Below, piece after piece: positions 2,109 through 43,543 of a stretch of DNA of 64,000 nt. The translations under genes and the position numbers were made by a program. The number at the start of each line of letters is the position of its first letter. The first letter of the stretch is position 1. Under the pieces are notes generated by a model that saw only the letters and a list, made by a program, of their open reading frames with translations, made no database searches and was not told the DNA's origin. This stretch comes from Candidatus Nomurabacteria bacterium (GTDB lineage: Bacteria > Patescibacteriota > Minisyncoccia > Phycocordibacterales > UBA918): positions 594,149 to 658,148 of the forward strand of contig CP060229.1 of NCBI GenBank assembly GCA_023898585.1, given 5' to 3'.

Positions 2109-3005
2109 ATGCGGTATCTTACTTCTGAAGAAATAAAGGCGCTTGAGCAGAAAGCGAATACACTTCGACAGAGTGTGATCGAAATGTTAACCGAAGCTGG
2201 CAGTGGACACACCGCCGGTCCGCTTGGTATGGCTGATGTTTTCACCCTGCTTTATTTTGGGGTACTAAAACACGATCCGAAAAACCCGGATTGGGAAGAA
2301 AGGGACAGAGTAGTCTTGTCTAATGGTCATATCTGTCCGATTTTGTATGCCACTTTAGCTCATGCCGGCTACTTTCCGGTTGAAGAACTCATGACTTTGC
2401 GCAAGCTTGGTTCACGTCTCCAGGGTCATCCTCACAGGGGAACGTTACCCGGAGTAGAAACCAGCTCAGGACCGCTAGGGTCGGGTTTGTCGCAGGCGGT
2501 TGGCATGGCTCTGGCGGAGAGGATAGACAATCCCTATTCTTCCAAATTCATTTATTGTTTAACCGGCGATGGGGAATTGGATGAGGGTCAGATTTGGGAA
2601 GCTTTGATGTTAGCCGGAAAAGAAAAACTAAACAATCTGATCATGATTATTGACCGTAACGGTATTCAGATTGATGGTTACACCAAAGACATCATGCCAC
2701 TAGAGCCTTTGGCGGAAAAGCTTGAATCATTTAATTTTGATGTGCAAGAGGTTGATGGGCACAACATAAGAGCCTTGAATGACGCTATCGGTAAAGCACA
2801 GTCGGTATACAGTCAACCATCAGTCATTATTGCTCATACTGTCGCCTCGAAAGGAGTTGATGTGTTTGAGAGAGACTTCAGGTGGCATGGCAATCCTCCC
2901 GGGAAAGGACCGGAGGACAGGGTGAGTAAAGGCGAGCAAGAAGCAGTGGCACTGAGAAAACTCAGAACATTAGCCGGAACTATTGAACCTCAAGATATTT
3001 CATAA
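2109..3005 (+). CDS. tkt: Transketolase, N-terminal (TPP-binding) subunit of a split enzyme
   Basis: GSGHTAGPLGMADV...NGHICPILYATLAHAGYF...GDGELDEGQIWEA are typical of the transketolase N-terminal section. Confidence 0.9.
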   Translation: MRYLTSEEIKALEQKANTLRQSVIEMLTEAGSGHTAGPLGMADVFTLLYFGVLKHDPKNPDWEERDRVVLSNGHICPILYATLAHAGYFPVEELMTLRKLGSRLQGHPHRGTLPGVETSSGPLGSGLSQAVGMALAERIDNPYSSKFIYCLTGDGELDEGQIWEALMLAGKEKLNNLIMIIDRNGIQIDGYTKDIMPLEPLAEKLESFNFDVQEVDGHNIRALNDAIGKAQSVYSQPSVIIAHTVASKGVDVFERDFRWHGNPPGKGPEDRVSKGEQEAVALRKLRTLAGTIEPQDIS

Positions 3006-3008
3006 ATT

Positions 3009-3992
3009 ATGTTTGCTAACCATCTACAACAAAATCTATCAGAAGAAACGGTAGAAAAAATACCAAACAGAAACGGTTACGGAGACGGGCTGTTGGAAGC
3101 GGGGAAGCGCGACGAGAGGGTCGTTGCCTTATGTTGCGATCTGACAGAGTCCACTCGCACCAATTTGTTTGCGGAGGAGTTTCCGAACCGCTTTATCCAG
3201 GTAGGTATTGCTGAACAAAACATGGCTTCTGTCGGCTCGGGAATGGCCTCTATGGGCAAGATTCCTTTTATCGCTTCTTACGCTATGTTTTCACCGGGCA
3301 GAAATTGGGAACAAGTCCGCACCACCATTGCTTACAACAATAGTAATGTAAAAATAGTCGGGGCTCACGCCGGTATCTCAGTCGGACCCGACGGTGCTAC
3401 TCATCAAGCGATTGAGGACATTGCCATTATGAGAGTAATTCCTAACATGGTTGTGATTGCTCCTTCTGATATCCACGAAGCGCGCAAGGTTACTTTAGCG
3501 GCTTCCAAGTACGATGGCCCGGTATATTTTCGTGTGGGGCGAAGTGCGGTGCCGGTTGTTACTACTCCTGAATCACCGTTTGAAATCGGGAAAGCTTACC
3601 GGATGTACTCAAGAAACGAATCACACGAACGTAAAGTGGGTATAGTGGTGACCGGTTCATTGCTCTTTAACGCGCTGATGGTAGCTGATAAATTAAACAA
3701 GGAAAATGTAGGCGTTTCGGTTCTGCATATGCCGACTATTAAGCCGTTAGACACCGAAGCTCTGGAGTCTTTTGCGGTCGAACATGGAGTCTTGGTAACA
3801 ATGGAAGAGCATAGTATCATCGGTGGTCTTGGTGGTGCGGTCGCTGAACATCTGTCAGAAACAGTCCCAACAAAAATTGTCAGAATGGGAATAAAGGATG
3901 TGTTTGGTGAGTCCGGAGAACCGGACGAGTTGATTTCTCACTTTGGTCTTGATGTGAAAAGTCTTATAAGTGCGATAAAGATGTTGGTCTAA
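3009..3992 (+). CDS. tkt: Transketolase, C-terminal (pyrimidine-binding) subunit
   Basis: GIAEQNMASVGSGMA...FSPGRNWEQVR present. Starts 4 nt after the N-terminal subunit's stop. Confidence 0.9.
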   Translation: MFANHLQQNLSEETVEKIPNRNGYGDGLLEAGKRDERVVALCCDLTESTRTNLFAEEFPNRFIQVGIAEQNMASVGSGMASMGKIPFIASYAMFSPGRNWEQVRTTIAYNNSNVKIVGAHAGISVGPDGATHQAIEDIAIMRVIPNMVVIAPSDIHEARKVTLAASKYDGPVYFRVGRSAVPVVTTPESPFEIGKAYRMYSRNESHERKVGIVVTGSLLFNALMVADKLNKENVGVSVLHMPTIKPLDTEALESFAVEHGVLVTMEEHSIIGGLGGAVAEHLSETVPTKIVRMGIKDVFGESGEPDELISHFGLDVKSLISAIKMLV

Positions 3993-14856: not shown

Positions 14857-15576
14857 ATGAAAATACCAACTGGACATCAGCATCCAATCACCAGAATGAT
14901 CTCAGAGATCAATAGTATTTTTTCCGAAATCGGTTTCGTCTTTGCTGAAGGACCAGAGGCAGAAACGACACATTACAACTTTGATCAACTCAATGTACCG
15001 AAAGATCACCCGGCTCGTGATATGCAAGACACATTCTTTTTTAAAGAGAAAGACGTGAGTGAACCAACGGTATTGCGCACGCATACGAGTCCTGTGCAGG
15101 CGCGATATATGGAAAGTCACAAACCACCAATTCGTATCATTGTGCCAGGGAAAGTATTTCGCAACGAAGCGACTGATGCTACGCACGAAGCACAGTTTTA
15201 TCAGCTAGAGGGTCTGTATGTTGACAAAGGGGTGCATCTCGGTCACCTGAAAGGAACTCTTGAGTACTTTTTCTCCAAACTGTTTAGTGGTGAGACAGAA
15301 GTTCGTTTCCGACCGAGCTTCTTCCCATTTACTGAGCCGAGCGTGGAAGTCGATATGAAAATCGAGGGAGAAGGAAAGTTGTGTGGCAAATGGATCGAGG
15401 TTATGGGTGCGGGTATGGTGAATCCAAGAGTGCTTAGTAACTGTGGTATTGATCCTGACGTGTACTCTGGTTTTGCATTTGGTATGGGTATCGATCGTCT
15501 GGGGGTGATGAAGTATGGCATTGAGGATGTGCGCGACTATTATTCGGGTGACTTACGATTCGTTAATCAGTTTTAA
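14857..15576 (+). CDS. pheS: Phenylalanine--tRNA ligase alpha subunit (short, catalytic core only)
   Basis: Class II motifs: PKDHPARDMQDTFF (motif 2 region), FRPSFFPFTEPS, GMGIDRL (motif 3). Only 239 aa. Confidence 0.9.
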   Translation: MKIPTGHQHPITRMISEINSIFSEIGFVFAEGPEAETTHYNFDQLNVPKDHPARDMQDTFFFKEKDVSEPTVLRTHTSPVQARYMESHKPPIRIIVPGKVFRNEATDATHEAQFYQLEGLYVDKGVHLGHLKGTLEYFFSKLFSGETEVRFRPSFFPFTEPSVEVDMKIEGEGKLCGKWIEVMGAGMVNPRVLSNCGIDPDVYSGFAFGMGIDRLGVMKYGIEDVRDYYSGDLRFVNQF

Positions 15577-22543: not shown

Positions 22544-23272
22544 ATGAACACCATTTTCGAAAAGATATGGGAGAAAAAGTTTGTGTTTTTGGGCACGTTT
22601 TTTCTGGTGTTCACTTTGTCATACATTGTCCTTCTGGCCGTTGATTTCTTACCCGAGCCGGTAACTAAAACAGAAGAATCAAAATCAGGGACCGACCAAG
22701 AGTCCTCCAAAGAATCTGCATCCGAATTGGATACTGAAGATGTTGAAGCGGTTGATGTATCGGGTGATGACATCTCCGCTCTTGAGATTGAATCAACGTC
22801 AACAGAGGATTTAGCAGTCAACGATAGTGAAGCGGTGAAACCAATCAGGATCGCGATCGCTAAAATTGACAAGGACATAGCTGTTCTTAATCCCACTTCT
22901 CGCACCATAGCCGACTTGGACGAGGCGCTACTTGGTGGTGTCGTAAGACATCCCGACTCAGCCACTTTGGCCCAAGAAGGTAACGTTTTTATTCTCGGCC
23001 ACTCCAGTTATCTGCCTAAAGTCTTCAATAAAAATTTTCAAGCATTTAATGGTATTCAAAATCTTGAATGGGGAGATGTGATTGAGGTTTATTCTGAGGA
23101 TTCTGTATACAAATACCAAGTGGTAAAAGTTTACCGAGCCAAGGCCAATGATGTGACAGTTCCTATCGCCGGGACAGGTAAAATGCTTACCTTGGCAACC
23201 TGCAACAGCTTTGGTAGTACCGACGATCGGTATATAGTGGAAGCAAAACAGATAGAGGTGGAAACCATCTAG
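22544..23272 (+). CDS. Sortase-family cysteine transpeptidase
   Basis: N-terminal TM anchor, acidic linker, His motif (FILGHSS) and catalytic TLATC (TLxTC) followed by Arg. Confidence 0.8.
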   Translation: MNTIFEKIWEKKFVFLGTFFLVFTLSYIVLLAVDFLPEPVTKTEESKSGTDQESSKESASELDTEDVEAVDVSGDDISALEIESTSTEDLAVNDSEAVKPIRIAIAKIDKDIAVLNPTSRTIADLDEALLGGVVRHPDSATLAQEGNVFILGHSSYLPKVFNKNFQAFNGIQNLEWGDVIEVYSEDSVYKYQVVKVYRAKANDVTVPIAGTGKMLTLATCNSFGSTDDRYIVEAKQIEVETI

Positions 23273-23435
23273 CAACTTGACAAAAGGTGAATTTACGGTA
23301 CATTATTAAATAATAGTGTTCTCCCGGTTGTACGGTTTATTTATTTAGTTCGTTTTCCTTGACGCATGTTTCTTTGTTGTTTCGTAAGCTTTGTTACTCT
23401 TGTGTATATATGGTGTAGGCAGGAGTATTAATTTT

Positions 23436-26400
23436 ATGAATAACCAAGATACTCGCATTATGAAAAAATATTCAAAGACCATTGCCAGTGTGATGGTGGT
23501 TTTTGCTATGACACTGTCAGCTGTGGCAAACCCATTTCTAACTGTGGCGGCATTCGATCAGTTTGATTCCCAATTTGGTTTTGACAATTCCTTTAATTTT
23601 GACAAGGACTTCGAATTTTCAAATTCTCAAGGATCGTCGAATGGAAACACTTTCGAATCCACCACTCCCGGTCAGGTGATAACCTCATCATCAGAGACAT
23701 TCACCGAATGTGTTCTCGAAGCTAGTCACGATGTTGTGACGGTGGGAGACAATATTACTCTCAACTGGCGAACCAGTGGTTTTGACAGTATCACTATCAA
23801 CGGCCAGTCTGTTTCTGGTAACAGTGGTTCTAAAGTCATTACCAATTTGCGTGAAAACTCCACTTTTACACTGCAGGCCTTGAGCAACAGTGGTTCAAGT
23901 TGTTTTCAGCAAGTACAAGTTACTTGTCTTCCTCCGGAAGAGCCGAAGGAATGTAAGCTTGAGATTGAGAAGACGGTAAACACGACTACCGCCGTACCGG
24001 GCGATAATCTTACCTATACAATCACGGTAAAAAATACCGGTGACGCCGACTGTACCGGAGGAGGGGTAAAGATCGAAGATGTAGTTGATAATAACCTGAG
24101 TTATTTGAGCCACCAATTAAGCGGTAATTTCAGTGCCGGTTACGGAGGTGATCCTGTCTACACCACCAACAATCGCACTCTGCATTTTAATGGCAATGTT
24201 CTAAATCCCGGTGAATCAGGAACTATTACTTGGATCGGTAAAGTAAACGCCCCCACTCAATGTGGAGACTTCCAGGTGAAGAATCAAGCCAAGGCTTCTG
24301 CCAAGGAACTAAATAATTTTCAGAGTTGGGTATACAGTCAAACTGTAAAAACTGACATTGATAATGATTGTCCGGAACCGGACGGGTGTGTGCTTGATGT
24401 CGATAAGACGGTAAACAAAACCACCGCTGTACCAGGTGATAACCTCACTTACACCATCACGGTAAAAAATACCGGTGACACCGATTGTACCGGGAGTGGT
24501 GTTTTGATTGAGGATGTGGTTGATCCGAACATCAGTTACCTGAGTCATAGTTTGAGCAATGATTTCCTCGCCGGATATCTTAATATTCCTGTCTACACCA
24601 CCAACAATCGCACTCTGCATTTTAATGGCAACATCTTGACTCCCGGTGAATCAGGAACCATTTCTTGGGTCGGTAAAGTCAGCGCTCCTAATCAGTGTGG
24701 TGATTTTGAAGTTACAAACCAAGCCAAAGCAACGGCTGTTGAGTTGGATAATTTTCAGACTTGGGCATATAGCCAGGTTGTAAAAACTGTTGTCGATAAT
24801 GACTGTGTGGTTGAGGATGAATTCGCCACAGTGGTTGCTCATAAAATTGTTTGTTCAAACGAGGCTGAATTGCCGAATTACGGTAACGATGGTCCGAACA
24901 TTACATCCAACACCGCTACCGATTGGGTTGCTACTCACAACAGTTGTTCACTGGTTTCCGGATGGGAATTCGAATGGACCGACAACCAAATCAACGACCC
25001 CGGCGACACACTGATCGGCCGGGCCGGTTCACCTTGGAACACTTTTGGTCCAACTGATGGAAACGGAAAAACTTCAACCGTGATCAATCTAACCAATTTG
25101 ACAAACGACCAAGTTTGGTTCAGGGAAGTGTTGCAAAATGGATATATTCCATTTACTCATGGAGCAAACGCCGGAACGAATATTGATAATGTTTCAGCTG
25201 AATTCTATTGTGGCAGTGACGTTATTAACTATGACAATCGAGATTATATACAAGGAATGCAAGATGATGGTGTCTATTATTGTGTAGCTTGGAATTCTCC
25301 GATACCAGAGGTACCCGCTCCAACCTGTGATTTGTTCACAGCCAATCCAACGGCCATAACCGCAGGCGACAGTTCGACTCTAACTTGGGAGACATCGCAT
25401 GCTAGTCAAGTCTTCTTGAATAATGGCATCGGAGAGGTGGCACACGACGGCTCTATAGCTGTTTCTCCTCTAGCCGATATTGTCTACAAACTTACTGTTA
25501 TTGGAGAGGAAGACAAGCGAGTTGAATGTGAAGTTCCTATTAATGTCTCTCTCGATTCGGTACCGGTTTGTGAATTGTTCACCGCGACTCCCAATTCACT
25601 TCCGTACGGAGGAGGAAGTGTGGCCTTGAATTGGAAAGTTTCTAATGCTTCCCAAGTGTCCATCTCTCCTTTGGTCGGTTCTGTTGAATTGATCGGCACA
25701 CGAAATGTAAATGTAGCGGAAGGTACCACTTTCATTTTAACTGCGACTGATGACAATGGAGACAAGGTGACTTGCCCGGCTCCGGTTGCTGTGGCTGATC
25801 CGGAACCAGATCCTATCACATGTCAAAACAACGTCTCTTTCTCTGCTTCTGACACGTCCATCAGACGAGGTGGTTCATCCACTCTTACTTGGAGCACGAC
25901 CGATATCGACTCAGTGTCTATAAGTGGTATAAACGAAACTTCGTTGTCAGGAAGTAAAAAAGTTTCACCCTCAAATGATATCACTTACACTTTAACCGCA
26001 ACAAAAGGGAATAATTCAATAAACTGTCCGGTTTCGATTGATGTTTCGAGTGGTGGTGGCGGTGGAGGAAGTGTGTCACCAAGTTGTGAGTTGGATATTT
26101 CTGATACCAAAATTAAAGCTGGTGAGAAAATCACTTTGGAGTGGGACACATCAAGAGCGACCGAAGTAACACTGACAGACGACAAAGGTAAGGTTCTGTT
26201 TACAACGGATGATTACCTAGCTAAGGATAAAGTTGATTATTACGATGGCTCGATCACCCTGAAGCCAACCCGAGACACCGAATATACACTGTTGGCGGAA
26301 CGAGGTTCAAGAGACGAAGAGTGTAAAGTAAAAGTTAAAGTCGAGGATGACGTGGTTGTTTTACAAACTAGAGACCAGCAACCATTGGTAGCCGGCATCT

Positions 26401-27341
26401 CTCTAAGTCAAGTGCCATACACCGGATTTGAAGCAGGTCCGATCATGACCGCTATGTTCTACATTCTTTTGATTGCTTGGGCAGTGTACGTCAGTTACCT
26501 GTTGGTGATACGAAGACAGGTGTCTTCAGTTGGTGGGGGAGGAGGTGAAGTGTTTTCCGTTAAAGAAGAAAAAAAAGCATCAATGCGACAGAAGGAGGAG
26601 TCAGTACGACCCGACGTATTTGTAGCTTCTGTTACGACAAGTCCCGCTCCGTCTGATGTCACCCCGGCTAATTTACCAACCGGTATGCCTGTTATCGGCT
26701 ATGAAAATCACATTGAAGATGAGGGTGATGGTGAGACTGACGAGACAAACCCGCATCAAGTTGATGACGCTTTTGTCACCGCTTTGGAGAATCGCGCTCA
26801 CAGTCAAAAAGCACTTTTGTCCAGCGATGCTGTACGGTACTTTATTGGAACAACTACAAATGAGGCGGAACGTAATGAAATACTTGATGTTGTTATCAAA
26901 GAAGCAAAAAACAATTATCCGCTTGAGGACGGTTGGATTGTGATAAATGAATCAAGAATGCGAAACCTTTGTGAAGTTTGTAAAAACAATAAGCAATCAT
27001 CGGAATTCTCATCGTTTATCCCTGCTGTTGTGCCGGAAGGCACTGGCTCTCTTGCGGAAGCAATTGTAACCGGTAACGTGGTCGCCGCTTACCAAATGAT
27101 CGGCAATCGACCAATGTTTGCTTTGGCTGATGCTTCGGCCGATCTTGACGCTCTGTATCGACAGAGGAAAGGAGGCAAAGAGCAAGTCTCAAATCTCTTG
27201 AAAAAGGAGTCAGAGAAATTGTCTGATGAAAAAATAAAAAATATGATTTCAGCTTTGACCGGGGCGTTAGATGGTGTATATACCGATGAAGCGTCTGCGG
27301 TAAAGATGGCGATCATGAAAGCAGTTAAGGAAGTATCGTAA
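23436..27341 (+). CDS. Giant (about 1300 aa) secreted surface protein with two DUF11-type repeat domains, Ig-like repeats, a VPYTG sorting-like signal, TM helix and an unusually long (about 280 aa) C-terminal domain
   Basis: ATG 13 nt after AGGAG. Signal peptide KKYSKTIASVMVVFAMTLSAVA. Two copies of KTVNxTTAVPGDNLTYTITVKNTGD[AT]DCTG..EDVVD..SYLSH (DUF11-like). QVPYTG followed by the hydrophobic segment IMTAMFYILLIAWAVYVSYLLV and RRQ. The ORF then continues to 27341. Confidence 0.7.
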   Translation: MNNQDTRIMKKYSKTIASVMVVFAMTLSAVANPFLTVAAFDQFDSQFGFDNSFNFDKDFEFSNSQGSSNGNTFESTTPGQVITSSSETFTECVLEASHDVVTVGDNITLNWRTSGFDSITINGQSVSGNSGSKVITNLRENSTFTLQALSNSGSSCFQQVQVTCLPPEEPKECKLEIEKTVNTTTAVPGDNLTYTITVKNTGDADCTGGGVKIEDVVDNNLSYLSHQLSGNFSAGYGGDPVYTTNNRTLHFNGNVLNPGESGTITWIGKVNAPTQCGDFQVKNQAKASAKELNNFQSWVYSQTVKTDIDNDCPEPDGCVLDVDKTVNKTTAVPGDNLTYTITVKNTGDTDCTGSGVLIEDVVDPNISYLSHSLSNDFLAGYLNIPVYTTNNRTLHFNGNILTPGESGTISWVGKVSAPNQCGDFEVTNQAKATAVELDNFQTWAYSQVVKTVVDNDCVVEDEFATVVAHKIVCSNEAELPNYGNDGPNITSNTATDWVATHNSCSLVSGWEFEWTDNQINDPGDTLIGRAGSPWNTFGPTDGNGKTSTVINLTNLTNDQVWFREVLQNGYIPFTHGANAGTNIDNVSAEFYCGSDVINYDNRDYIQGMQDDGVYYCVAWNSPIPEVPAPTCDLFTANPTAITAGDSSTLTWETSHASQVFLNNGIGEVAHDGSIAVSPLADIVYKLTVIGEEDKRVECEVPINVSLDSVPVCELFTATPNSLPYGGGSVALNWKVSNASQVSISPLVGSVELIGTRNVNVAEGTTFILTATDDNGDKVTCPAPVAVADPEPDPITCQNNVSFSASDTSIRRGGSSTLTWSTTDIDSVSISGINETSLSGSKKVSPSNDITYTLTATKGNNSINCPVSIDVSSGGGGGGSVSPSCELDISDTKIKAGEKITLEWDTSRATEVTLTDDKGKVLFTTDDYLAKDKVDYYDGSITLKPTRDTEYTLLAERGSRDEECKVKVKVEDDVVVLQTRDQQPLVAGISLSQVPYTGFEAGPIMTAMFYILLIAWAVYVSYLLVIRRQVSSVGGGGGEVFSVKEEKKASMRQKEESVRPDVFVASVTTSPAPSDVTPANLPTGMPVIGYENHIEDEGDGETDETNPHQVDDAFVTALENRAHSQKALLSSDAVRYFIGTTTNEAERNEILDVVIKEAKNNYPLEDGWIVINESRMRNLCEVCKNNKQSSEFSSFIPAVVPEGTGSLAEAIVTGNVVAAYQMIGNRPMFALADASADLDALYRQRKGGKEQVSNLLKKESEKLSDEKIKNMISALTGALDGVYTDEASAVKMAIMKAVKEVS

Positions 27342-35618: not shown

Positions 35619-36521
35619 ATGGCAAACCGACATTTATCGCGCAGTATTGTTCTTCAGTCACTCTTTGAGTGGGATTTAAACGCGTTAGAAAAAAAGGCGG
35701 TACTGGAAGTTTTAAATAGAAACGTCACGGAGTTCGCTCCCAACAAGACCGACATGCCATTTATGGAAAAACTACTCGATGGAGTGATGGCCAAACAACC
35801 CGAGCTCGATCTGGTGATAGAAAAAGCGGCCCCGGAGTGGCCCATCGACCGCATTTCTCCTGTCGATCGAAATATTCTTCGTCTCGGTCTATATGAGTTG
35901 CTTTTTGCAGACCGAGCGGAGGTCCCGGCCAAAGTCGCTATCAATGAAGCGATCGAACTTGCCAAGCAATTCGGCGGTGACAATAGCAGTCGTTTTGTTA
36001 ACGGCGTCCTCGGCGCTGTCTACAAAGAAATCGGCGAGCCTGGAAAGAACGAACAAAGCAAAAACCGCAAAAAAGACGTTCCCTTTGAAGAAATGCCGAT
36101 TGAGCGCCTGTCTGGAGCGGTTGTCTACGCGGTGCATGAAGGGCAAATTTACCTCGCCTTAGTACATGACATTTTCGGCCATTGGACTCTCTCTAAGAGC
36201 AAAGTGAAAGAAGAAGAATCATTTGAGGATGGCGCGACAAGAGCTTTATTGGAAGAAATCGGCTTGCCGGTCAAGATTGAAGATAGTCTCGGAAACAACG
36301 AATATGTAGCCTCTCAGCCGGAAAAAGGCAAGGTTCGGAAACAAGTTCAGTATTTCCTTGCGCAAGCACCATACCAAGATGTCGAATTGCTCAAGAAAGG
36401 CGGTCTCGACGACGCCAAGTGGTTTAAAGTGGCTGAAATTCTCGACCTTAATTTTTACGAAGATATCTTACCGATCGTGACTAAGGCCGTTACCGTGCTG
36501 GTTGGCAGGGGCTCAAAATAG
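35619..36521 (+). CDS. nusB: NusB-like antitermination domain fused to a C-terminal Nudix-hydrolase-like domain
   Basis: N-terminal 140 aa: RHLSRSIVLQSLFEWDL...RNILRLGLYELLF (NusB fold). C-terminal 150 aa: AVVYAVHEGQIYLALV...EEESFEDGATRALLEEIGL (Nudix box variant E-x7-RALLEEIGL) and DDAKWFKVAEIL. Confidence 0.7.
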   Translation: MANRHLSRSIVLQSLFEWDLNALEKKAVLEVLNRNVTEFAPNKTDMPFMEKLLDGVMAKQPELDLVIEKAAPEWPIDRISPVDRNILRLGLYELLFADRAEVPAKVAINEAIELAKQFGGDNSSRFVNGVLGAVYKEIGEPGKNEQSKNRKKDVPFEEMPIERLSGAVVYAVHEGQIYLALVHDIFGHWTLSKSKVKEEESFEDGATRALLEEIGLPVKIEDSLGNNEYVASQPEKGKVRKQVQYFLAQAPYQDVELLKKGGLDDAKWFKVAEILDLNFYEDILPIVTKAVTVLVGRGSK

Positions 36522-36569: not shown

Positions 36570-37289
36570 TTGTCTATGGAAGAACGAAATATTCAAACAG
36601 ATTTACTAAAACTGCAAAATTTACTCAATGTACAGTTTAAAGACACTACTGTCCTGCTTTCGGCTATTACGCACCGTTCGTATTTAAACGAACACCGGGA
36701 AGCAACCTGGGACCATAATGAACGCCTGGAGTTTTTGGGAGACGCGGTTTTGGAGTTGGTGGTGACCGATTATCTCTTTGCCAAGTACCCCGAAAAACCG
36801 GAGGGTGAACTGACTGCTGTAAGGGCGGCGCTGGTTAATACTGTGTCGCTGTCTGCCACCTCCGAGCAGATGGGAATCAATGAATACTTGCTCATGTCAA
36901 AGGGTGAAGCGAGAGATGTCGGGCGCGCGCGTCAGTATATTTTAGCCAATGCCTTTGAGGCTTGTATCGGGGCCATCTACAAAGATCAGGGTTATAGGGA
37001 AGCTAAGGAATTCATCGCCGGTCGTCTGTTTGAAAAAACCGATGAGATTGTCCGCAAGCGCTTATGGCAAGACGCCAAGAGCCGTTTTCAAGAACTGGCC
37101 CAAGAGCATGTCTCAGTTACTCCGACTTACGAGACCATTTCCCAAGACGGTCCCGATCATGACCGAGTATTTACCGTCGGTGTTTATTTAAAGAAAGTTT
37201 TAGTAGCCGAAGGAACAGGCTGTTCCAAGCAAGAGGCCGAACAAAAGGCCGCCGAGCAGGCCATTGTGGCGAAGGGTTGGGATGTTTAG
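36570..37289 (+). CDS. rnc: Ribonuclease III
   Basis: RNase III signature ERLEFLGDAVLELVV and C-terminal dsRBD. Confidence 0.9.
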   Translation: MSMEERNIQTDLLKLQNLLNVQFKDTTVLLSAITHRSYLNEHREATWDHNERLEFLGDAVLELVVTDYLFAKYPEKPEGELTAVRAALVNTVSLSATSEQMGINEYLLMSKGEARDVGRARQYILANAFEACIGAIYKDQGYREAKEFIAGRLFEKTDEIVRKRLWQDAKSRFQELAQEHVSVTPTYETISQDGPDHDRVFTVGVYLKKVLVAEGTGCSKQEAEQKAAEQAIVAKGWDV

Positions 37290-37346: not shown

Positions 37347-37374
37347 ATTGCGGGCTTAAAGGGCGTGGTATAAT
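37347..37374 (+). promoter_or_regulatory. Promoter with extended -10 (TGGTATAAT) upstream of the pilin array
   Basis: ATTGCG/TTGCGG -35 candidates 15-16 nt upstream of TATAAT, preceded by TGg. Confidence 0.45.
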
Positions 37375-37380
37375 TTTGAC

Positions 37381-38073
37381 ATGAGAAAAATGTCTGTCGG
37401 AATGAGTCTGGTTGAGTTGTTGGTGGTCATGACCATAATCGCCATTTTGACCGCCGCCTTTGCCACCAGCTTTACCAAGGAATCTCAACAAAAGAGGGAT
37501 ATTCAAAGACAGTCTGATCTGCGGAATCTTCAAGTGGCGATTGAGCTTTATAAAAATAAGAATGGTCGGTATCCGGAGGGGTGTAACACGCCTGGTAATT
37601 GGTCTGGAGAGTTAGGGTCGAGTTATAAATGTGGTAATAATACCTCACAATACATAAAAAATTTAGCTCCTGAGTTTATTCCGGTTCTACCCACTGATCC
37701 TAAGCTAAACTGCCCATCGAGCGGATCTTGTAACAAGGGGTATGTTTATACGGTAAACGCCGACGGCAGTGTGTATAAATTAATGGCCAAGAATACAGTT
37801 GAGGCTGAGCCTGACAGTGATAATTTGAACGGCAAAGGTGTCGACTGGGACCATCCTTTCAAAAGTTGTGAAATTAGTGATGATAGCCAGTCATATTGTA
37901 CAGGCTCTCTGTCTGGAAACACGCCTCCTCATTGTCAAGAGAGTAACGATCAATTTAAAACCAGTTACGGTGTATGGGGAGGTTACGCTATACCAGATGT
38001 AGTTCCTGGTCATCCTCAATATGAAAACAAAATTAAAACAGGAACCAGGGCTATTATTTGCAACATCCCATAA
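37381..38073 (+). CDS. Type IV pilin / pseudopilin-like protein (class A of this array)
   Basis: Prepilin signal VGMSLVELLVVMTIIAIL (G at -1, E at +5), then LRNLQVAIELYKNKNGRYPEG. Confidence 0.75.
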   Translation: MRKMSVGMSLVELLVVMTIIAILTAAFATSFTKESQQKRDIQRQSDLRNLQVAIELYKNKNGRYPEGCNTPGNWSGELGSSYKCGNNTSQYIKNLAPEFIPVLPTDPKLNCPSSGSCNKGYVYTVNADGSVYKLMAKNTVEAEPDSDNLNGKGVDWDHPFKSCEISDDSQSYCTGSLSGNTPPHCQESNDQFKTSYGVWGGYAIPDVVPGHPQYENKIKTGTRAIICNIP

Positions 38074-38119
38074 ATATAACCCCTCAATCAAACCTTACAA
38101 CCACTGCATTTACCACAAC

Positions 38120-38704
38120 ATGAATTTTTACAAAAACAAAACAAACACCACCGGCTTCTCACTGATTGAAGTTATGATCGTGACCTCGATCATCGGTATT
38201 TTGGCGACATACGGGACATTCTCCTATAACGAAACCAAGAAGCAGGCACGCGATGTTAGGCGTATGGAAGACCTGACCACCATCGCCAAGGCATTTGTGT
38301 TGGCAGAAGAGGACAGGGGTCGGGCGTTTGATTGTGATTCGGGGGTGAGGATTGAGCCGGGTTTTATGTCTGCGGACAACAACACCGTAGTTGATTGTAG
38401 TGATAAAGACGAGATACAATCCGCTTTGGCAAAGTATTTGGGCAAAATACCGAGTGACCCTAAAGGCCCGGGCGATGCGAGGTATTTTTATTACTACAGC
38501 AATCATGATTGTCTCGCTCCGCAAAGCAAAGGATATCTAGTCCATGGCGCTATGGAAAATGACAGCAATTCCAACCGCGACCAGGTGTGTGGCAAAAAAG
38601 TCAATGGAACTGATGCGGGGTTGAATAATGAAGGTTACTACAATTACAACACTGGTCTAGGAGTCGCTAACCATCCCTTCGTCGTTCGGGTCGGAGATCT
38701 GTAG
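38120..38704 (+). CDS. Type IV pilin-like protein (class B)
   Basis: TGFSLIEVMIV prepilin motif. KQARDVRRMEDL...NHPFVVRVGDL. In-frame ATG chosen at the signal peptide. Confidence 0.75.
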   Translation: MNFYKNKTNTTGFSLIEVMIVTSIIGILATYGTFSYNETKKQARDVRRMEDLTTIAKAFVLAEEDRGRAFDCDSGVRIEPGFMSADNNTVVDCSDKDEIQSALAKYLGKIPSDPKGPGDARYFYYYSNHDCLAPQSKGYLVHGAMENDSNSNRDQVCGKKVNGTDAGLNNEGYYNYNTGLGVANHPFVVRVGDL

Positions 38705-38729
38705 TATTCCTCTTTAAATAAAAGTCAGT

Positions 38730-39365
38730 ATGTTCAAAGATATTTTACAAACAAAAAAATCCGGCTTCACCTTGGTGGAGCTCTTGGTGGTGATTGGGAT
38801 TATCGGGGTTTTGGTCGGAGCGGTTTCTTTGAATTTCAACGCTTCCAAAGTAAAGGCCAGAAACGAAGCTTTTCAAAATTCTCTGGAAGAATTACGTCTG
38901 GCCATGAATCTCTACAAGGCTAAGTACGGGAGATATCCGGAGGCTAATAGCAATTGTTCCACTTATTCTTATTCTGGTAATATTACAAAAATACACAAAA
39001 CAGACGCTAGTGGATGCGCCGGTTTCGAAATAATTTCCGGAATGGTACCGGATTTTGTTGATGGCTTACCTTCGGCCAAGAGTTCGGCCAATGAGAATTG
39101 TGTAATTACCTATCAAGTTCATGGTGATAACATTGGTACCTGGGGTGATAATATCATTGATGGTGATTGGTATAAACTGACGGCCGAAAATTGTCACGGC
39201 GGAGCTTCTTCACCGGCCGAAGGTATTCAGCCGGGAGACAGATTTGCTCGCTGTCCGGATAGTTGTTCTGACTGTAATGGTGTCACCTACGCGACGATCA
39301 AAGTAGACAAGTCTTTTTATGAGTCTTACAGTATCTACAGTAGCAGTACAGGCATGTGTCGCTAG
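38730..39365 (+). CDS. Type IV pilin-like protein (class A paralog)
   Basis: SGFTLVELLVVIGIIG, and LRLAMNLYKAKYGRYPE shared with the first pilin. Confidence 0.75.
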   Translation: MFKDILQTKKSGFTLVELLVVIGIIGVLVGAVSLNFNASKVKARNEAFQNSLEELRLAMNLYKAKYGRYPEANSNCSTYSYSGNITKIHKTDASGCAGFEIISGMVPDFVDGLPSAKSSANENCVITYQVHGDNIGTWGDNIIDGDWYKLTAENCHGGASSPAEGIQPGDRFARCPDSCSDCNGVTYATIKVDKSFYESYSIYSSSTGMCR

Positions 39366-39448
39366 ATTTCAAATAAAATATTTAAACTATAAGAAACCCC
39401 TGTGCACACGTAAAACAATCCATCTCCCCTCGGTGGTACAATATCACC

Positions 39449-40030
39449 ATGATTAAACTTAATTCGCGGGCTGGCTATTCTTTGCTTGAGATTATGGTGG
39501 TGGTGTCTATTATCACTATACTGGCTTCCATCGGCGCCTATTCTTTAAACGAAAGTTCAAAACAAGCTCGTGATGTTAAGCGAATTGAAGAATTAAAGCA
39601 AATAGCAAAAGTGTTAAGTTTGGCTGAATTTGAGTTGGGGAGGGAGATAAAGTGTGGTGGCGGAACACGTATAGAATCCGGTTTTAAGGAAGAGGATGGT
39701 GTAACACCGCTTACAGAAACTAGCTGTGCAGACATAGAAATAATAAAGAGATACATAACCGAGTATTTTCCTGAAGTGCCACACGATCCCAAAGGCCCAG
39801 ATGATAAAAGATACTTTTATTATTATGATCGACATGATTGTCCACTTCCACAAAAAAATGGCTTCTTGGTTTATGCCGCCATGGAAAATGAAAGCAATTC
39901 CAACCGTGATGAAGTGTGTGGGAAAAAGGATAATTCAAACGAGGGAGGTAATAATCATGGCTACTACAATTACCATCCAGTTTTAAAAGTTCACAATCAT
40001 CCCTACGTTGTACGGGTCGGAGATCTATAG
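39449..40030 (+). CDS. Type IV pilin-like protein (class B paralog)
   Basis: AGYSLLEIMVV. KQARDVKRIEEL...NHPYVVRVGDL is nearly identical in its blocks to the second pilin. Confidence 0.75.
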   Translation: MIKLNSRAGYSLLEIMVVVSIITILASIGAYSLNESSKQARDVKRIEELKQIAKVLSLAEFELGREIKCGGGTRIESGFKEEDGVTPLTETSCADIEIIKRYITEYFPEVPHDPKGPDDKRYFYYYDRHDCPLPQKNGFLVYAAMENESNSNRDEVCGKKDNSNEGGNNHGYYNYHPVLKVHNHPYVVRVGDL

Positions 40031-40043
40031 TTATTATAAAAAT

Positions 40044-40607
40044 ATGTTTAAAAAAAATTCCCAACCCAACCAACTCGGCTTCACTCTCATTGAGGTTTTG
40101 GTGGTGATTGCTATTATCAGTGTGTTGATTTCAATTGTCAGTATCAGCTTTACTGAAGCCAGAAAGGGGACTAGAGACGGCGTTAGAATGACCGCGCTCT
40201 CCGAGCTTCAGTTGGCGATAGAAAAGTATAAAGCGCAAAAAGGGCAGTACCCGGATCAAGGTTGCGGGGTGGCGGGAACTAATTGGGCCGGGCCGGGTAG
40301 CCATTCGTCAGATGGTGGGGTGACTTGCAATGAATACATAACAGGTTTAGCCCCTGAATATATCGCCAAATTACCAACTGATCCGAATAGCGAAGCGGTT
40401 GCCGATATGGGCTTTCTTTATCAAGTATCGACGAACAGAGACGCCTACAAAATAATGGTTTACGGCAGTGTGGAGAAAAAGACCATCACTTCCTACGGTG
40501 ATAAATTTGCTCGGTGCCCAGCGAAAGATACTAGCGGTGAGTGTGGCGGAGATTTACCTCCGGAAAAAGTATACGCTGTCTATTCACCGGGGGCGGAAAA
40601 TTGGTAA
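40044..40607 (+). CDS. Type IV pilin-like protein (class A paralog)
   Basis: LGFTLIEVLVVIAIIS. LQLAIEKYKAQKGQYPD. Confidence 0.75.
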   Translation: MFKKNSQPNQLGFTLIEVLVVIAIISVLISIVSISFTEARKGTRDGVRMTALSELQLAIEKYKAQKGQYPDQGCGVAGTNWAGPGSHSSDGGVTCNEYITGLAPEYIAKLPTDPNSEAVADMGFLYQVSTNRDAYKIMVYGSVEKKTITSYGDKFARCPAKDTSGECGGDLPPEKVYAVYSPGAENW

Positions 40608-40616
40608 TCATTAACA

Positions 40617-42869
40617 ATGTACTTAAAAGAACTTTCCATCAACGGTTTTAAATCTTTCGCTAAAAAAAGCGAGTTGGAATTTTCCGCACCCATCACCGCG
40701 ATAGTCGGGCCAAACGGCTCCGGCAAAAGTAACATTGCCGAATCTTTTCGTTTTGTCTTGGGTGAACAGTCGGTGAAGTCGATGCGGGGCAAAAGAGGCG
40801 AGGATCTCATTTGGGGTGGTTCGGAGAAAGTGTCGCGTGGTAATCGAGCCGGTGTTGTGGTGGTTTTTGATAATAAAAGTCGGACGTTCGCGCTCGATTT
40901 TGACGAAGTCAAAATCGAGCGCGTCGTCCATCGCGATGGTCAAAATGAGTACAAGCTCAATGATTCTTCAGTTCGCTTGAAGGATATTCATGAACTGCTG
41001 GCGAACGCCAACATCGGTTCGACCGGTCATCATATTATTTCCCAAGGTGAGGCTGACCGTATCTTAGCTTCCGGCCCGAAAGAGCGACGTGAAATGATTG
41101 AAGACGCGCTTGGTCTCAAGGTTTACCAGCTCAAAAAACAAGAAACCGAGCGAAAGTTGGAAAAAACCAGAGAAAACATTGCCCAAGTGGAGTCGTTACG
41201 AAGAGAAGCTTCCCCGCATTTAAAGTATTTAAAGAAGCAAATGGAGAAAGCCGAACGCTCGCTGGAAGTGCAAAAAGAATTGCGCTCCAGATACGCCGAA
41301 TATTTAAAGAGGGAAGATGTTTACGTTGCTTTTCATACCGACAGACTGACAACGAGCCGTCGCGAGCCGTCTGAAGGGCTGGAGGTGGTGCAGAAAAAAT
41401 TATCCAAAATCAAAGAAGTACTCAGAGAAACCGAGTCAGAACCAGCCACCCCGCCCGATTTGGTGTCGGCCGAAGAGGCCTATCGCTTAGCTACAAAAGA
41501 GCGTCAGTCTCTTGAGCGCGAGTTGAGTAAGGTGGAAGGACAAGTTTCGTTTATTGAGCGACGCCTAGCGAACCCGGCTCGAACGGAGGTCAAGGCCGAT
41601 ATGTTTGTCTCACGCGCGGAGCTCGAAGAGGTGGTGCTTGATATCGAATCCGATGTCGACAAAGCGCTTGGTAAAGGCGGAGAGTCCGTTCTGGAGCGAG
41701 CGTTGAATGATTTGCTTCATAAGCTGAAAACTTTTTTACGACGCGAACAAGGAGAGGTGGTCGACACCGCCTCGGCCGACAAGGAGGAGTTGGAGATATT
41801 GTGGAAAAGTTTGGAAAAAGCGGACAAGGCGGTTAAAGAAGCGTTGGCAACGGAAGGAAAAAAAAGAGAAAGTCTTGAAGCTCTAAGACTGGCCCGAGTG
41901 GCGGATTCCGAGAAGAATCGCGATGCCGAAAGAGAAATGTTTTCGCTTCTGAACAGAGAGCGGGAATTGGAAGCGAGTATAGAGAATATTGACAGAGAAT
42001 TGCGAGTCTTGGAGCGTGACCGAACTGATTTTAAAATTCAACTTCAGGAAGCGGTTGCTCTGCTCGGGAGAGGAGCTTCCGATTATTTCACACTGGAAGT
42101 TATAAATGAAGAGGGTGAGAAAATAGCTGACGAAGCAATTGTCAGTGAAGATCGTGACGCGCAAAGAAAGCGCCAGCATGAGCTCGAGAAACTGAAAATC
42201 AGACTGGAAGAATTGGGGGTTGGTGCCACGGAAGATCTGCTCAAAGAATACAACGACGCGAAAGAACGTGACGAATTCTTGGCGCGCGAACTCGGAGACT
42301 TGGAAGCCTCTGTCTCCAATCTGAAAGAATTAATTGTCGACATGCAATCCAAGCTACAAGAGCAATTTGCCGGCGGGGTGGAAAAAATTAACAAGGAATT
42401 TCATACCTTTTTCACGCTCATGTTTGGTGGCGGTTCGGCCGGTCTCGAAAAAGTGCAATTAAAACAACGTGGTGAAGGGGAAGAATCATTGAGTGATGAT
42501 GAAGTGGAAGGGGAAGAAGGGGTGGAGTTGCGGGTTGCGCTACCCAACAAAAGAGTGAAGGGCCTCGAAATGCTGTCCGGGGGAGAAAGAGCGCTTACCT
42601 CGATCGCGCTTATTTTTGCCATGAGTCAGGTGAATCCACCGCCGTTTATCATTCTCGACGAGACGGACGCCGCGCTTGATGAGGCCAACAGTCGGCGTTA
42701 TGGTGACATGATTGAGGCGTTGGCCAAGAAATCACAGTTGGTCTTAATCACTCACAACCGCGAAACCATGAGCCGGGCGGGCATTCTGTACGGTATTACC
42801 ATGGGCTCGGATGGGGTGTCGAAAATGTTGTCGGTGAAGTTTGAAGAAGCGGCTGAAGTTGCGAAGTAG
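40617..42869 (+). CDS. SMC-family ABC ATPase, short (750 aa), no obvious hinge domain
   Basis: N-terminal MYLKELSINGFKSF..GPNGSGKSN (Walker A), a long heptad-rich E/K/R/L middle, and C-terminal LSGGERALTSIALIFAM (signature) plus FIILDETDAALD (Walker B). Confidence 0.65.
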   Translation: MYLKELSINGFKSFAKKSELEFSAPITAIVGPNGSGKSNIAESFRFVLGEQSVKSMRGKRGEDLIWGGSEKVSRGNRAGVVVVFDNKSRTFALDFDEVKIERVVHRDGQNEYKLNDSSVRLKDIHELLANANIGSTGHHIISQGEADRILASGPKERREMIEDALGLKVYQLKKQETERKLEKTRENIAQVESLRREASPHLKYLKKQMEKAERSLEVQKELRSRYAEYLKREDVYVAFHTDRLTTSRREPSEGLEVVQKKLSKIKEVLRETESEPATPPDLVSAEEAYRLATKERQSLERELSKVEGQVSFIERRLANPARTEVKADMFVSRAELEEVVLDIESDVDKALGKGGESVLERALNDLLHKLKTFLRREQGEVVDTASADKEELEILWKSLEKADKAVKEALATEGKKRESLEALRLARVADSEKNRDAEREMFSLLNRERELEASIENIDRELRVLERDRTDFKIQLQEAVALLGRGASDYFTLEVINEEGEKIADEAIVSEDRDAQRKRQHELEKLKIRLEELGVGATEDLLKEYNDAKERDEFLARELGDLEASVSNLKELIVDMQSKLQEQFAGGVEKINKEFHTFFTLMFGGGSAGLEKVQLKQRGEGEESLSDDEVEGEEGVELRVALPNKRVKGLEMLSGGERALTSIALIFAMSQVNPPPFIILDETDAALDEANSRRYGDMIEALAKKSQLVLITHNRETMSRAGILYGITMGSDGVSKMLSVKFEEAAEVAK

Positions 42870-42994
42870 GGGTTGTGGATAACCAAGGCCGGCGAGATTG
42901 CTTTTCTTGGTAAATGTGGTATTATCCTGGTAGCGCTCCGGTCCTTTTCGGAGTTTCTTTTTTGCTCCGCACGGGGCTTTTGGAGGATAGTACG

Positions 42995-43543
42995 TTGAAA
43001 TATAAAATCATTCTTCTGGTTTTGGGTCTTTTTGTCTCCGGAATAAACTTTGCCTATTCGGCCACATATGTGGCACACAACGAGTTTTACAAGATTCACG
43101 TTCCTGGGGATGCTTATATCCCTTCGGGAACGATAAGCGAATCTCAATATTACACCTTCGGGCTAGGTATGACTCAGTCTTGGTATGTGCTCGAAGTTAC
43201 AATTACCGCGCCGGATAGTCTCGAGGGCGGATTGGAGTTCGTTACCAGTAGTAAACCCTACGGATCCGGATGGTTATTTTATGATGGCACCTTATTTGGT
43301 GGAGAATCGTCAAGTTTTACTATGTCTGGTTCCTTACTCTCGACGCCCGAGGTGCCAACTAACGTGTACTTGTCTATGGCACTATACGGAACCGATCAGG
43401 TGATCACCTTCGGTGAAGGTGGAAGCTTTATCACTGCGGGTGTAGACACCTCGGTGATACCGATCCCGGCCGCGTTTTGGCTCTTCGGCTCAGCCCTACT
43501 CAGCTTTGTCGGATTCTCAAGAAGGAGAACTGTCTTTGTATGA
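42995..43543 (+). CDS. Secreted protein with PEP-CTERM-like C-terminal sorting signal (TTG start proposed)
   Basis: GGAGG 9 nt upstream of TTG. Signal peptide KYKIILLVLGLFVSGINFAYSA. C-terminus VIPIPAAFWLFGSALLSFVGFSRRRTVFV (P-x-P motif, TM helix, RRR). Confidence 0.55.
   Translation: MKYKIILLVLGLFVSGINFAYSATYVAHNEFYKIHVPGDAYIPSGTISESQYYTFGLGMTQSWYVLEVTITAPDSLEGGLEFVTSSKPYGSGWLFYDGTLFGGESSSFTMSGSLLSTPEVPTNVYLSMALYGTDQVITFGEGGSFITAGVDTSVIPIPAAFWLFGSALLSFVGFSRRRTVFV

What the first reader, a model, noticed from the sequence alone, without database searches (positions are those of the whole stretch)
37381..40607. Five tandem prepilin genes in an alternating A-B-A-B-A paralog pattern
All five ORFs carry class-III prepilin signals (G|F/M/Y-x-L-x-E). 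Genes 1, 3 and 5 share an ELYK..G.YPE block. Genes 2 and 4 share KQARDV(R/K)R(M/I)E(D/E)L and a near-identical C-terminus NHP(F/Y)VVRVGDL, implying duplication of a two-gene unit. No pilB/pilC/pilD are in the window. Such arrays may supply major and minor pilins for a type IV pilus or a competence or attachment apparatus, possibly with antigenic variation by recombination between paralogs.
Basis: seen in the sequence. Interest (0 to 1): 0.5.

Follow-up and report, generated by a model that had tools for sequence, protein, structure and literature searches.

The report
Five-pilin array in a Kaiserbacteria genome
Five intact type IV pilin genes of two kinds sit in a row between two housekeeping genes of an ultrasmall Kaiserbacteria (CPR) bacterium; they are an enlarged version of a pilin slot that related genomes share, not a device for varying the cell surface, so the finding is real but fairly ordinary.

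Summary
Window 37381-40607 (+) carries five intact prepilin genes in the order A-B-A-B-A. All five exceed the Pfam N_methyl cutoff, and g2 and g4 are 55% identical (E 1e-75).

The proposed origin does not hold. In 48 related Parcubacteria loci the same slot (rpmF, nusB-NUDIX, rnc, [pilins], smc) contains only A-type pilins, usually two. The three A genes (g1, g3, g5) belong to three old orthogroups; each is closer to genes in other genomes than to its neighbours. The B genes belong to a rare pilin family (79 representatives among 1.84 billion proteins). In all five other lineages examined, B-family genes lie in or beside this same slot. g2 and g4 are sister copies.

So the array grew by adding and duplicating B genes in a conserved slot, not by duplicating an A-B unit. 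Antigenic variation is unlikely:
- paralogs share at most 14 identical bases in a row;
- all five copies are complete;
- ten independent assemblies differ by two SNPs and one 1-nt deletion, the latter probably an assembly error.

No pilB, pilC or pilD lies in the window, and I could not test the rest of the genome. The most likely function is type IV pilus subunits for attachment or DNA uptake.

The parts
37381..38073 (+). g1: A1-type prepilin, 230 aa, leader MRKMSVG|MSLVE. It is the conserved first gene of the slot.
   Evidence: N_methyl 21.5 bits. Orthologs at mostly 35-50% identity follow rnc directly in nearly all related loci.
38120..38704 (+). g2: B-type prepilin, 194 aa, G|FSLIE.
   Evidence: N_methyl 27.1 bits. 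Identical to NCBI USN91885.1 / MCA9355808.1. 55% identical to g4 and its sister in the NJ tree.
38730..39365 (+). g3: A3-type prepilin, 211 aa, G|FTLVE.
   Evidence: N_methyl 32.2 bits. Groups with A3-type genes of L013, L151, L167, L170 and L127. The L175 slot also ends with an A3-type gene by BLAST, 44% identity. The only two SNPs seen among the assemblies lie here: E100E and M105L.
39449..40030 (+). g4: B-type prepilin, 193 aa, G|YSLLE.
40044..40607 (+). g5: A5-type prepilin, 187 aa, G|FTLIE. It is the best conserved type of the slot.
   Evidence: N_methyl 36.7 bits. 84 homologs, most of them 40-55% identical. AF2 pLDDT 88.7. The 15 best Foldseek hits are all pilins, including EpsG, PilA4 and M. 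xanthus PilA, but none is significant.
36570..37289 (+). rnc (RNase III): conserved upstream boundary of the pilin slot.
   Evidence: Pfam annotation of the same gene in the 100% identical contigs L001-L003. 78-80% identical in relatives. Synteny.
40617..42869 (+). smc (short, 750 aa): conserved downstream boundary of the slot. It starts 9 nt after the g5 stop codon.
   Evidence: SMC_N 219 bits. Synteny.
37366..37374 (+). TGGTATAAT, an extended -10-like element ending 6 nt before the g1 ATG. It may be an internal promoter giving a leaderless transcript (inference).
   Evidence: Read directly from the sequence. The consensus scan did not report it because no -35 box matches.
39434..39442 (+). 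TGGTACAAT, an extended -10-like element with the same geometry, 6 nt before the g4 ATG (inference).
   Evidence: Read directly from the sequence.

Best explanation
The five genes encode type IV pilin subunits of a Candidatus Kaiserbacteria (Parcubacteria / CPR) bacterium. They occupy a pilin slot, conserved across related Parcubacteria, that is embedded in the housekeeping string rpmF, nusB-NUDIX, rnc, [pilins], smc.

Shown:
- The usual slot content is an A1-type pilin followed by one or two A5-type pilins, less often an A3-type.
- The window has all three A types (g1 = A1, g3 = A3, g5 = A5) plus two copies of a rare accessory B-type pilin (g2, g4).
- g2 and g4 are lineage-specific sister duplicates. 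B-family genes elsewhere also live in this slot, immediately after the first A-type gene in four of five lineages and directly after rnc in the fifth.
- A and B are homologous over about 150 residues. They share the N-terminal helix, conserved cysteines and a (L/I/V)PxDP motif. Both model as classical pilin 'lollipops'.

Inferred:
- A PilD-type peptidase cleaves the prepilins after the conserved Gly.
- A PilB/PilC/PilM-N-O machine encoded elsewhere extracts them from the membrane and polymerises them into a pilus without a secretin, since the cell has a single membrane.
- The conserved A1 and A5 proteins are the core (major) subunits, co-expressed with housekeeping genes.
- A3 and B are accessory or alternative subunits that change the surface or adhesive properties of the filament, for attachment to a host cell and/or DNA uptake.

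The alternating order results from gene gain and duplication within the slot. It is not a functional two-gene repeat or a variation device.
For: Pilin identity:
- N_methyl and TIGR02532 scores are above cutoff for all five.
- AF2 models of g4 and g5 (pLDDT 88 and 88.7) have a 52-residue N-terminal helix plus a beta-sheet head.

Conserved slot:
- Searches show it in long contigs of relatives.
- Of 48 loci spanning rnc to smc: 31 A1-A5, 12 A1-A5-A5, 3 A1-A3, 1 A5-A1-A3, 1 A1-A5-A3.
- The NJ tree resolves three A orthogroups.

B family:
- A word-indexed search of 5.8 billion proteins returned only g4 itself and its paralog g2.
- The exhaustive HMM search found 79 representatives, all pilins of about 150-220 aa apart from a few shorter fragments.
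- Their contexts are A1-B-B-A3, A1-B-A5, A-B-B'-A5, A1-B-A and rnc-B-A.
- g2 and g4 are sisters.
- A/B profile-profile comparison: probability 99.9%, E 8e-36 over 151 columns.

Intactness: the array is 99.9-100% identical in ten independent assemblies.

Operon-like layout: all genes are on the same strand with gaps of 9-91 nt, and no terminator-like site lies in any intergenic gap.

Machinery and role in the group:
- PilB is abundant and highly conserved in Parcubacteria: all 8000 scored candidates pass E 1e-30 and the top 120 are at least 71% identical to the query.
- PilB sits next to pilin clusters in L016-L018.
- T4P components and pilins are enriched in CPR, and PilQ is absent (PMC6744442).
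- T4P mediate host binding and motility in cultivated Saccharibacteria (PMC11623550).
Against: - No assembly ATPase, platform protein or prepilin peptidase lies in the 64-kb window. I could not show that they exist in this genome: the PilB list did not flag the 994,774-bp contig.
- The assignment of major versus accessory subunits is inference from conservation only. There are no expression or filament data.
- The internal promoters are read by eye. The consensus scan gave promoter and terminator counts at shuffle level.
Confidence: 0.75

Rival explanations
1. The array mainly builds a competence (ComG-like) pseudopilus for DNA uptake rather than an adhesive or motility pilus.
For: CPR bacteria cannot make nucleotides and widely encode competence components together with T4P (PMC6744442). 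The A-type pilins give weak ComGC, ComGE and GspG-like hits.
Against: ComGC, ComGD, ComGE and ComGF scores are far below their cutoffs: at most 24.8 bits against 75 for ComGC. No comGA, comGB or comEC is adjacent. In Saccharibacteria the pilin mutant studied affected host association, not competence, according to a section heading of PMC11623550. This role does not exclude the best explanation.
Confidence: 0.2
2. The A-B-A-B-A order arose by tandem duplication of an A-B gene pair.
For: The alternating order itself, and the 55% identity of g2 and g4.
Against: The A partners are only 33-35% identical to each other, and each has closer orthologs in other genomes at the same slot. Relatives carry A1-A5, A1-A5-A5, A1-B-A5 and A1-B-B-A3, which shows that A and B genes are gained and lost independently.
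Confidence: 0.05
3. The paralogs act as a recombination reservoir for antigenic or phase variation, like Neisseria pilE/pilS.
For: There are several tandem paralogs. An A8 run (40047-40054) lies at the 5' end of g5, with a 1-nt deletion in one assembly. One Logan variant of g4 has a frameshifted C-terminus (P0001).
Against: The longest shared exact run is 14 nt or less. No copy is silent or truncated. Ten assemblies from different samples differ by two SNPs and no mosaic tracts. The assembly with the A8 deletion (L004) also has smc broken into four pieces, which points to assembly errors.
Confidence: 0.03
4. They are type II secretion pseudopilins, as the NCBI product name 'type II secretion system protein' suggests.
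For: The best NCBIfam hits by E-value are GspG and GspH, and Pfam T2SSG gives weak hits.
Against: All scores are far below the cutoffs: GspG at most 44.5 bits against 88.85, T2SSG at most 14.2 against 21. The matches to GspH and to g1/g3 cover only the N-terminal region; the GspG matches of g2, g4 and g5 extend further but remain below cutoff. CPR lack an outer membrane and the secretin (PMC6744442).
Confidence: 0.02

Closest known systems
Type IV pili of CPR/Patescibacteria (experimentally: Nanosynbacter lyticus TM7x T4P-1/T4P-2, PMC11623550; Saccharibacteria TM7i, PMC9894109)
   Same: Monoderm-type T4P without a secretin. Several pilin genes per genome. Pilins carry a class III signal. The proposed role is episymbiont-host attachment and motility. 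Pilins are enriched in CPR (PMC6744442).
   Different: The lineage is different (Kaiserbacteria / Parcubacteria, uncultivated). The pilins here are not next to pilB or pilC but sit between rnc and smc. The B-type head domain has no characterised relative. There are no functional data.
Heteropolymeric T4P of Streptococcus sanguinis (tandem major pilins PilE1/PilE2; PDB 8pfb)
   Different: Co-assembly is not shown here. Sequence similarity is limited to the N-terminal helix. In S. sanguinis the pilins lie inside the pil operon.
Thermus thermophilus PilA4 / PilA5 (wide and narrow pili built by one machinery; PDB 6xxd, 6xxe)
   Same: Several major pilins give distinct filaments. PilA4 is among the best structural matches of both models.
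T2SS major pseudopilin GspG/PulG/EpsG
   Same: The helix-to-loop motif (LxxYxxxxGxYP) and a (L/I)PxDP motif resemble GspG. GspG is the best NCBIfam hit, and EpsG is the top Foldseek hit for g5.
   Different: Scores are below all curated cutoffs. The proteins are longer (187-230 aa against about 140), with extra Cys-rich head regions. No T2SS is expected in a single-membrane CPR cell.
Neisseria pilE/pilS antigenic variation
   Same: Several pilin paralogs lie clustered in the genome.
   Different: There are no silent cassettes and no shared DNA tracts (14 nt or less). No population variation is seen.

Membership tests
Type IV pilin (class III signal peptide proteins; Pfam PF07963 / TIGR02532) | Short positively charged leader ending in Gly, hydrophobic +1 residue, Glu at +5, and about 20 hydrophobic residues. 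| tested here: met
   All five score above the PF07963 gathering score and the TIGR02532 cutoff. The motif was read directly.
Type IV pilin (class III signal peptide proteins; Pfam PF07963 / TIGR02532) | Lollipop fold: an N-terminal helix of about 50 residues packed on an antiparallel beta-sheet head. | tested here: met
   AF2 models of g4 (H12-63 plus 4 strands, pLDDT 88) and g5 (H15-66 plus 5 strands, pLDDT 88.7). Top fold matches are pilins. g1, g2 and g3 were not modelled; the fold is inferred for them by homology.
Type IV pilin (class III signal peptide proteins; Pfam PF07963 / TIGR02532) | Cleavage and N-methylation by a PilD-type prepilin peptidase. | not testable with these tools
   No peptidase gene lies in the window. 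This needs the whole genome or biochemistry.
Type IV pilin (class III signal peptide proteins; Pfam PF07963 / TIGR02532) | Assembly machinery (PilB ATPase, PilC platform, PilM/N/O) encoded in the same genome. | tested here: inconclusive
   Absent from the 64-kb window. PilB is ubiquitous in Parcubacteria and adjacent to pilins in L016-L018, but the copy in this genome could not be identified.
T2SS major pseudopilin GspG (TIGR01710 / PF08334) | Score above the curated family cutoff. | tested here: not met
   TIGR01710 gives 26-44.5 bits against a cutoff of 88.85. PF08334 gives 12.9-14.2 bits for g1, g3 and g5 against 21, and no hit for g2 or g4.
Competence pilins ComGC/GD/GE/GF | Score above the curated family cutoff. 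| tested here: not met
   ComGC gives at most 24.8 bits against 75. ComGE gives at most 22.8 against 49.
Pilin antigenic-variation locus (pilE/pilS type) | Silent, promoterless or 5'-truncated donor copies. | tested here: not met
   All five have a start codon, a leader and a full-length ORF.
Pilin antigenic-variation locus (pilE/pilS type) | Conserved DNA tracts shared by the copies that allow gene conversion. | tested here: not met
   The longest exact shared run is 14 nt. The best blastn match is 72% over 250 nt, between g2 and g4.
Pilin antigenic-variation locus (pilE/pilS type) | Sequence mosaicism among isolates or populations. | tested here: not met
   Ten assemblies are 99.9-100% identical, with two SNPs and no mosaics. 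Read-level data were not available.
rnc-smc pilin slot of Kaiserbacteria-like Parcubacteria (defined in this analysis) | Pilin genes lie between rnc and smc, downstream of rpmF and nusB-NUDIX, with an A1-type gene first. | tested here: met
   Window order. The same order occurs in 48 spanning loci and in L011, L013, L175 and L178.

The most novel reading that the evidence does not exclude
The rnc-smc slot is the main, constitutively expressed pilin locus of a whole Parcubacteria clade. Gain, loss and duplication of accessory pilins there (A3 type, the rare B type) would then retune which host-cell surface the pilus binds. On this reading the five-gene array marks a lineage with an altered or broadened host range, and the B-type head is a new adhesin-like pilin module.
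Probability: 0.2. Interest if true: 0.5.

Novelty: new member of a known kind. Interest (0 to 1): 0.3.

Why it matters
Type IV pili are the leading candidates for how ultrasmall CPR bacteria find and hold on to host cells, but nothing has been tested experimentally in Parcubacteria. This analysis gives two concrete, testable points:
- A clade of these bacteria keeps its conserved pilins in a fixed housekeeping neighbourhood (rnc, pilins, smc).
- The content of that slot varies between lineages, partly through a rare B-type pilin family.

That offers a simple marker locus for comparing pilus repertoires, and possibly host specificity, across metagenomes. It also shows that several public gene calls cut off the signal peptides of these pilins. 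The finding does not change the current view of pilus biology.

Tried and rejected
- **Genome-contig scan with the full-length A5 alignment.** The generic N-terminal helix pattern swamped it, returning mostly Planctomycetota and no orthologs. It served only as a source of PilB-adjacent pilin clusters (L016-L018). Repeating the scan on metagenome contigs with a head-domain-only alignment worked.
- **Finding PilB of the window's own genome.** I queried a Zambryskiibacteria PilB and looked for the 994,774-bp contig among the hits.
- **Consensus promoter/terminator scan.** Counts were at shuffle level and no intergenic terminator was found. The scan is uninformative about internal promoters.
- **Shorter gene calls for g3 (191 aa), g5 (168 aa), g1 (223 aa) and g4 (178 aa) in public assemblies.** I suspected strain differences. 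The DNA is identical at these start regions, so they are differences in start-codon choice.
- **Phase variation at the A8 tract, and the frameshifted g4 variant P0001.** Each is seen once. The A8 deletion is in an assembly whose smc gene is also fragmented, so an error is the more likely cause.
- **dN/dS between g2 and g4.** Not attempted, because at 55% protein identity synonymous sites are saturated.
Full report
**Observation**

Window 37381-40607 (+) contains five consecutive ORFs. After refining the starts they are:
- g1: 37381-38073, 230 aa
- g2: 38120-38704, 194 aa
- g3: 38730-39365, 211 aa
- g4: 39449-40030, 193 aa
- g5: 40044-40607, 187 aa

The g2 and g5 starts match NCBI proteins USN91885.1 and USN91888.1. 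Each protein has a short basic leader ending in Gly, a hydrophobic +1 residue (M, F, F, Y, F), Glu at +5 and a hydrophobic stretch of about 20 residues. All five pass the Pfam N_methyl gathering score and the TIGR02532 cutoff. A regex for this signal over every six-frame ORF of the 64-kb window hits only these five plus one out-of-context match.

The A/B classes are real. g2/g4 are 55% identical (E 1e-75). g1/g5, g3/g5 and g1/g3 are 33-35% identical (E 3e-32 to 9e-18). A versus B gives E 1e-8 to 1e-15, over the N-terminal half in most pairs. The A motif is only approximately shared.

**Organism and surroundings**

The window is housekeeping DNA of a Candidatus Kaiserbacteria bacterium (Parcubacteria, CPR), according to the names NCBI gives to identical proteins. 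It encodes:
- GAPDH, a split transketolase, RF, S2 and EF-Ts
- PheST, GyrB, ThrS and DnaE
- RNase HII, L32 and a NusB-NUDIX fusion
- RNase III, a short SMC and RNase R
- primase and sigma-70

ORFs of rpoB/rpoC size and a ribosomal-protein-like gene cluster at 46-57 kb were not scanned.

Pfam scans covered 30 ORFs, including nearly all of 290 aa or more. Together with Walker-A and GGGDxK motif searches they found no PilB, PilT, PilC, PilD or PilM. The array lies directly between rnc and smc, on the same strand, with gaps of 9-91 nt and no terminator-like hairpin in any intergenic gap.

**Population check**

The array was recovered from ten independent public assemblies (ENA, Logan, NCBI GCA_020428745.1) at 99.9-100% identity. 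The only differences are:
- two SNPs, both in g3 (synonymous E100E, and M105L);
- one 1-nt deletion in an A8 run at the start of g5.

The deletion is in an assembly whose smc gene is also fragmented, so it is probably an error. The shorter public gene calls for g1, g3, g4 and g5 reflect start-codon choice on identical DNA, not mutations.

**A conserved slot**

Long contigs of relatives show the same string: thrS, dnaE, rnhB, rpmF, nusB-NUDIX, rnc, [pilins], smc. A metagenome scan with a head-domain-only alignment of the g5 family returned 80 loci, of which 48 span rnc to smc. Their slot contents were:

| Slot content | Loci |
|---|---|
| A1-A5 | 31 |
| A1-A5-A5 | 12 |
| A1-A3 | 3 |
| A5-A1-A3 | 1 |
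| A1-A5-A3 | 1 |

None contains a B-type gene. A neighbour-joining tree resolves three A orthogroups, and g1, g3 and g5 each group with orthologs from other genomes. The three A genes are therefore old paralogs that belong to the slot. They are not recent copies of one another.

**The B type**

A word-indexed search of 5.8 billion proteins found only g4 itself and its paralog g2. An exhaustive HMM search with the B head domain found 79 representatives among 1.84 billion proteins, 37 of them at E 1e-10 or better. Apart from a few shorter fragments they are pilins of about 150-220 aa, and in most the match begins around residue 40.

Every B-family member whose context I could read lies in or beside the same slot:
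- L175: A1-B-B-A3
- L178: A1-B-A5
- L179: A-B-B'-A5
- L181: A1-B-A
- L182: rnc-B-A

Only L175 and L178 span the slot through to smc; L181 is a 1.4-kb contig without either anchor gene.

g2 and g4 are sister sequences in the B tree. Profile-profile comparison shows that A and B are homologous over 151 columns (probability 99.9%, E 8e-36). They share two cysteines and the (L/I/V)PxDP motif.

The window's order A1-B-A3-B-A5 is thus the largest and only strictly alternating arrangement seen. It is best explained by a B gene resident in the slot, which duplicated in this lineage. Duplication of an A-B pair does not fit.

**Structure**

AlphaFold2 models of g4 (44-sequence alignment, pLDDT 88.0) and g5 (24 sequences, pLDDT 88.7) each show a 52-residue N-terminal helix and a small beta-sheet head.
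- g5: the 15 best Foldseek hits are all pilins (EpsG, PilA4, M. xanthus PilA, PilA1), with E of 0.3 or more.
- Sequence matches to solved structures cover only the N-terminal part of the profile (up to position 91), chiefly the helix.

The fold class is therefore clear, but the heads are distant from anything solved.

**Function and mechanism**

Shown: five intact, conserved prepilins with pilin folds, in a conserved housekeeping-embedded slot.

Inferred from established T4P biology and from CPR literature:
- PilD cleaves the prepilins after Gly.
- PilB/PilC/PilMNO assemble them into a secretin-less pilus used for attachment, motility and/or DNA uptake.

T4P components and pilins are enriched in CPR, and PilQ is absent (PMC6744442). 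In cultivated Saccharibacteria two T4P mediate host binding and twitching (PMC11623550).

PilB is abundant and very conserved in Parcubacteria: all 8000 scored candidates pass E 1e-30, and the top 120 are at least 71% identical to the query.

I propose that A1 and A5 are the core subunits and that A3 and B are accessory or alternative subunits. This rests on conservation only.

**Rejected readings**

- Antigenic variation by recombination is unlikely. Paralogs share at most 14 identical bases in a row, the best DNA similarity is 72% over 250 nt, there are no silent copies, and no mosaics occur among ten assemblies.
- The 'type II secretion' product name is an artefact of helix similarity. All GspG, T2SSG and ComG scores fall far below their cutoffs.
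- The genes are not pseudogenes.

**Verdict**

This is a real but fairly ordinary feature: new members of the type IV pilin family in a CPR genome. The modestly new points are the conserved rnc-smc pilin slot and the rare B-type pilin family that lives in it.

Interest is 0.3. Confidence is about 0.9 for the evolutionary and anatomical description and about 0.75 for the overall explanation including pilus function.

Noticed in passing
window 42914-43543 (+): A 209-aa ORF just after smc ends in ...VIPIPAAFWLFGSALLSFVGFSRRR, which resembles a PEP-CTERM / VPLPA-CTERM sorting signal. NCBIfam hits are below cutoff (VPLPA-CTERM E 0.013; PepA E 4e-5). Such a signal would be unusual in a single-membrane CPR cell.
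   Followed up: partly
window 22544-27341 (+): A sortase (class D/E-like, below the subfamily cutoffs) is immediately followed by a 1316-aa protein with DUF11/CARDB-type repeats. This is probably a sortase-anchored surface protein, a second candidate adhesion system near the pilins.
   Followed up: partly
window-wide gene starts (e.g. 5852, 9877, 11279, 14857, 37381, 39449, 58925): No Shine-Dalgarno-like motif appears upstream of any of 31 inspected starts. Many have a TAnAAT-like box ending 4-10 nt before the ATG; g1 and g4 have TGGTAnAAT followed by 6 nt and the ATG. This suggests widespread leaderless or very short-leader mRNAs.
   Followed up: partly
window 35619-36521 (+): A NusB-NUDIX fusion protein of 300 aa, conserved at 80-88% identity and the same length in all related loci.
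   Followed up: no
window 40617-42869 (+): SMC is only 750 aa (typical bacterial SMC is about 1,180 aa, from my own knowledge). Relatives have the same short form, 745-750 aa.
   Followed up: no
window 40047-40054 (A8 run in the g5 leader): One assembly (L004) has a 1-nt deletion in this homopolymer. The same assembly has smc split into four ORFs, so an assembly error is more likely than phase variation.
   Followed up: partly
window about 39930 (g4 C-terminus); protein P0001: One Logan assembly encodes a g4 variant with a frameshifted C-terminus (...NSNEEVIIMATTITIQF), 178 aa. It was seen on one contig only.
   Followed up: no
L001-L005, L007, L008 (public gene calls of the same locus): On DNA that is identical at these start regions, automated gene calls start g3 and g5 at internal GTG codons (191 and 168 aa), and g1 and g4 at internal Met codons. 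This removes or truncates the signal peptides, so some of these pilins carry no N_methyl annotation in public data.
   Followed up: yes
L017 (3276-10909), L018 (362-9368), L037 (7245-14224): Other Patescibacteria carry 5-8 tandem pilin genes. In L017 and L018 these lie directly next to a PilB-like ATPase. This is the more usual arrangement, in contrast with the rnc-smc slot.
   Followed up: partly
window 2109-3992 (+), 14857-15576 (+): Transketolase is split into two ORFs (298 and 327 aa), and PheS is short (239 aa). Both fit a reduced CPR genome.
   Followed up: no
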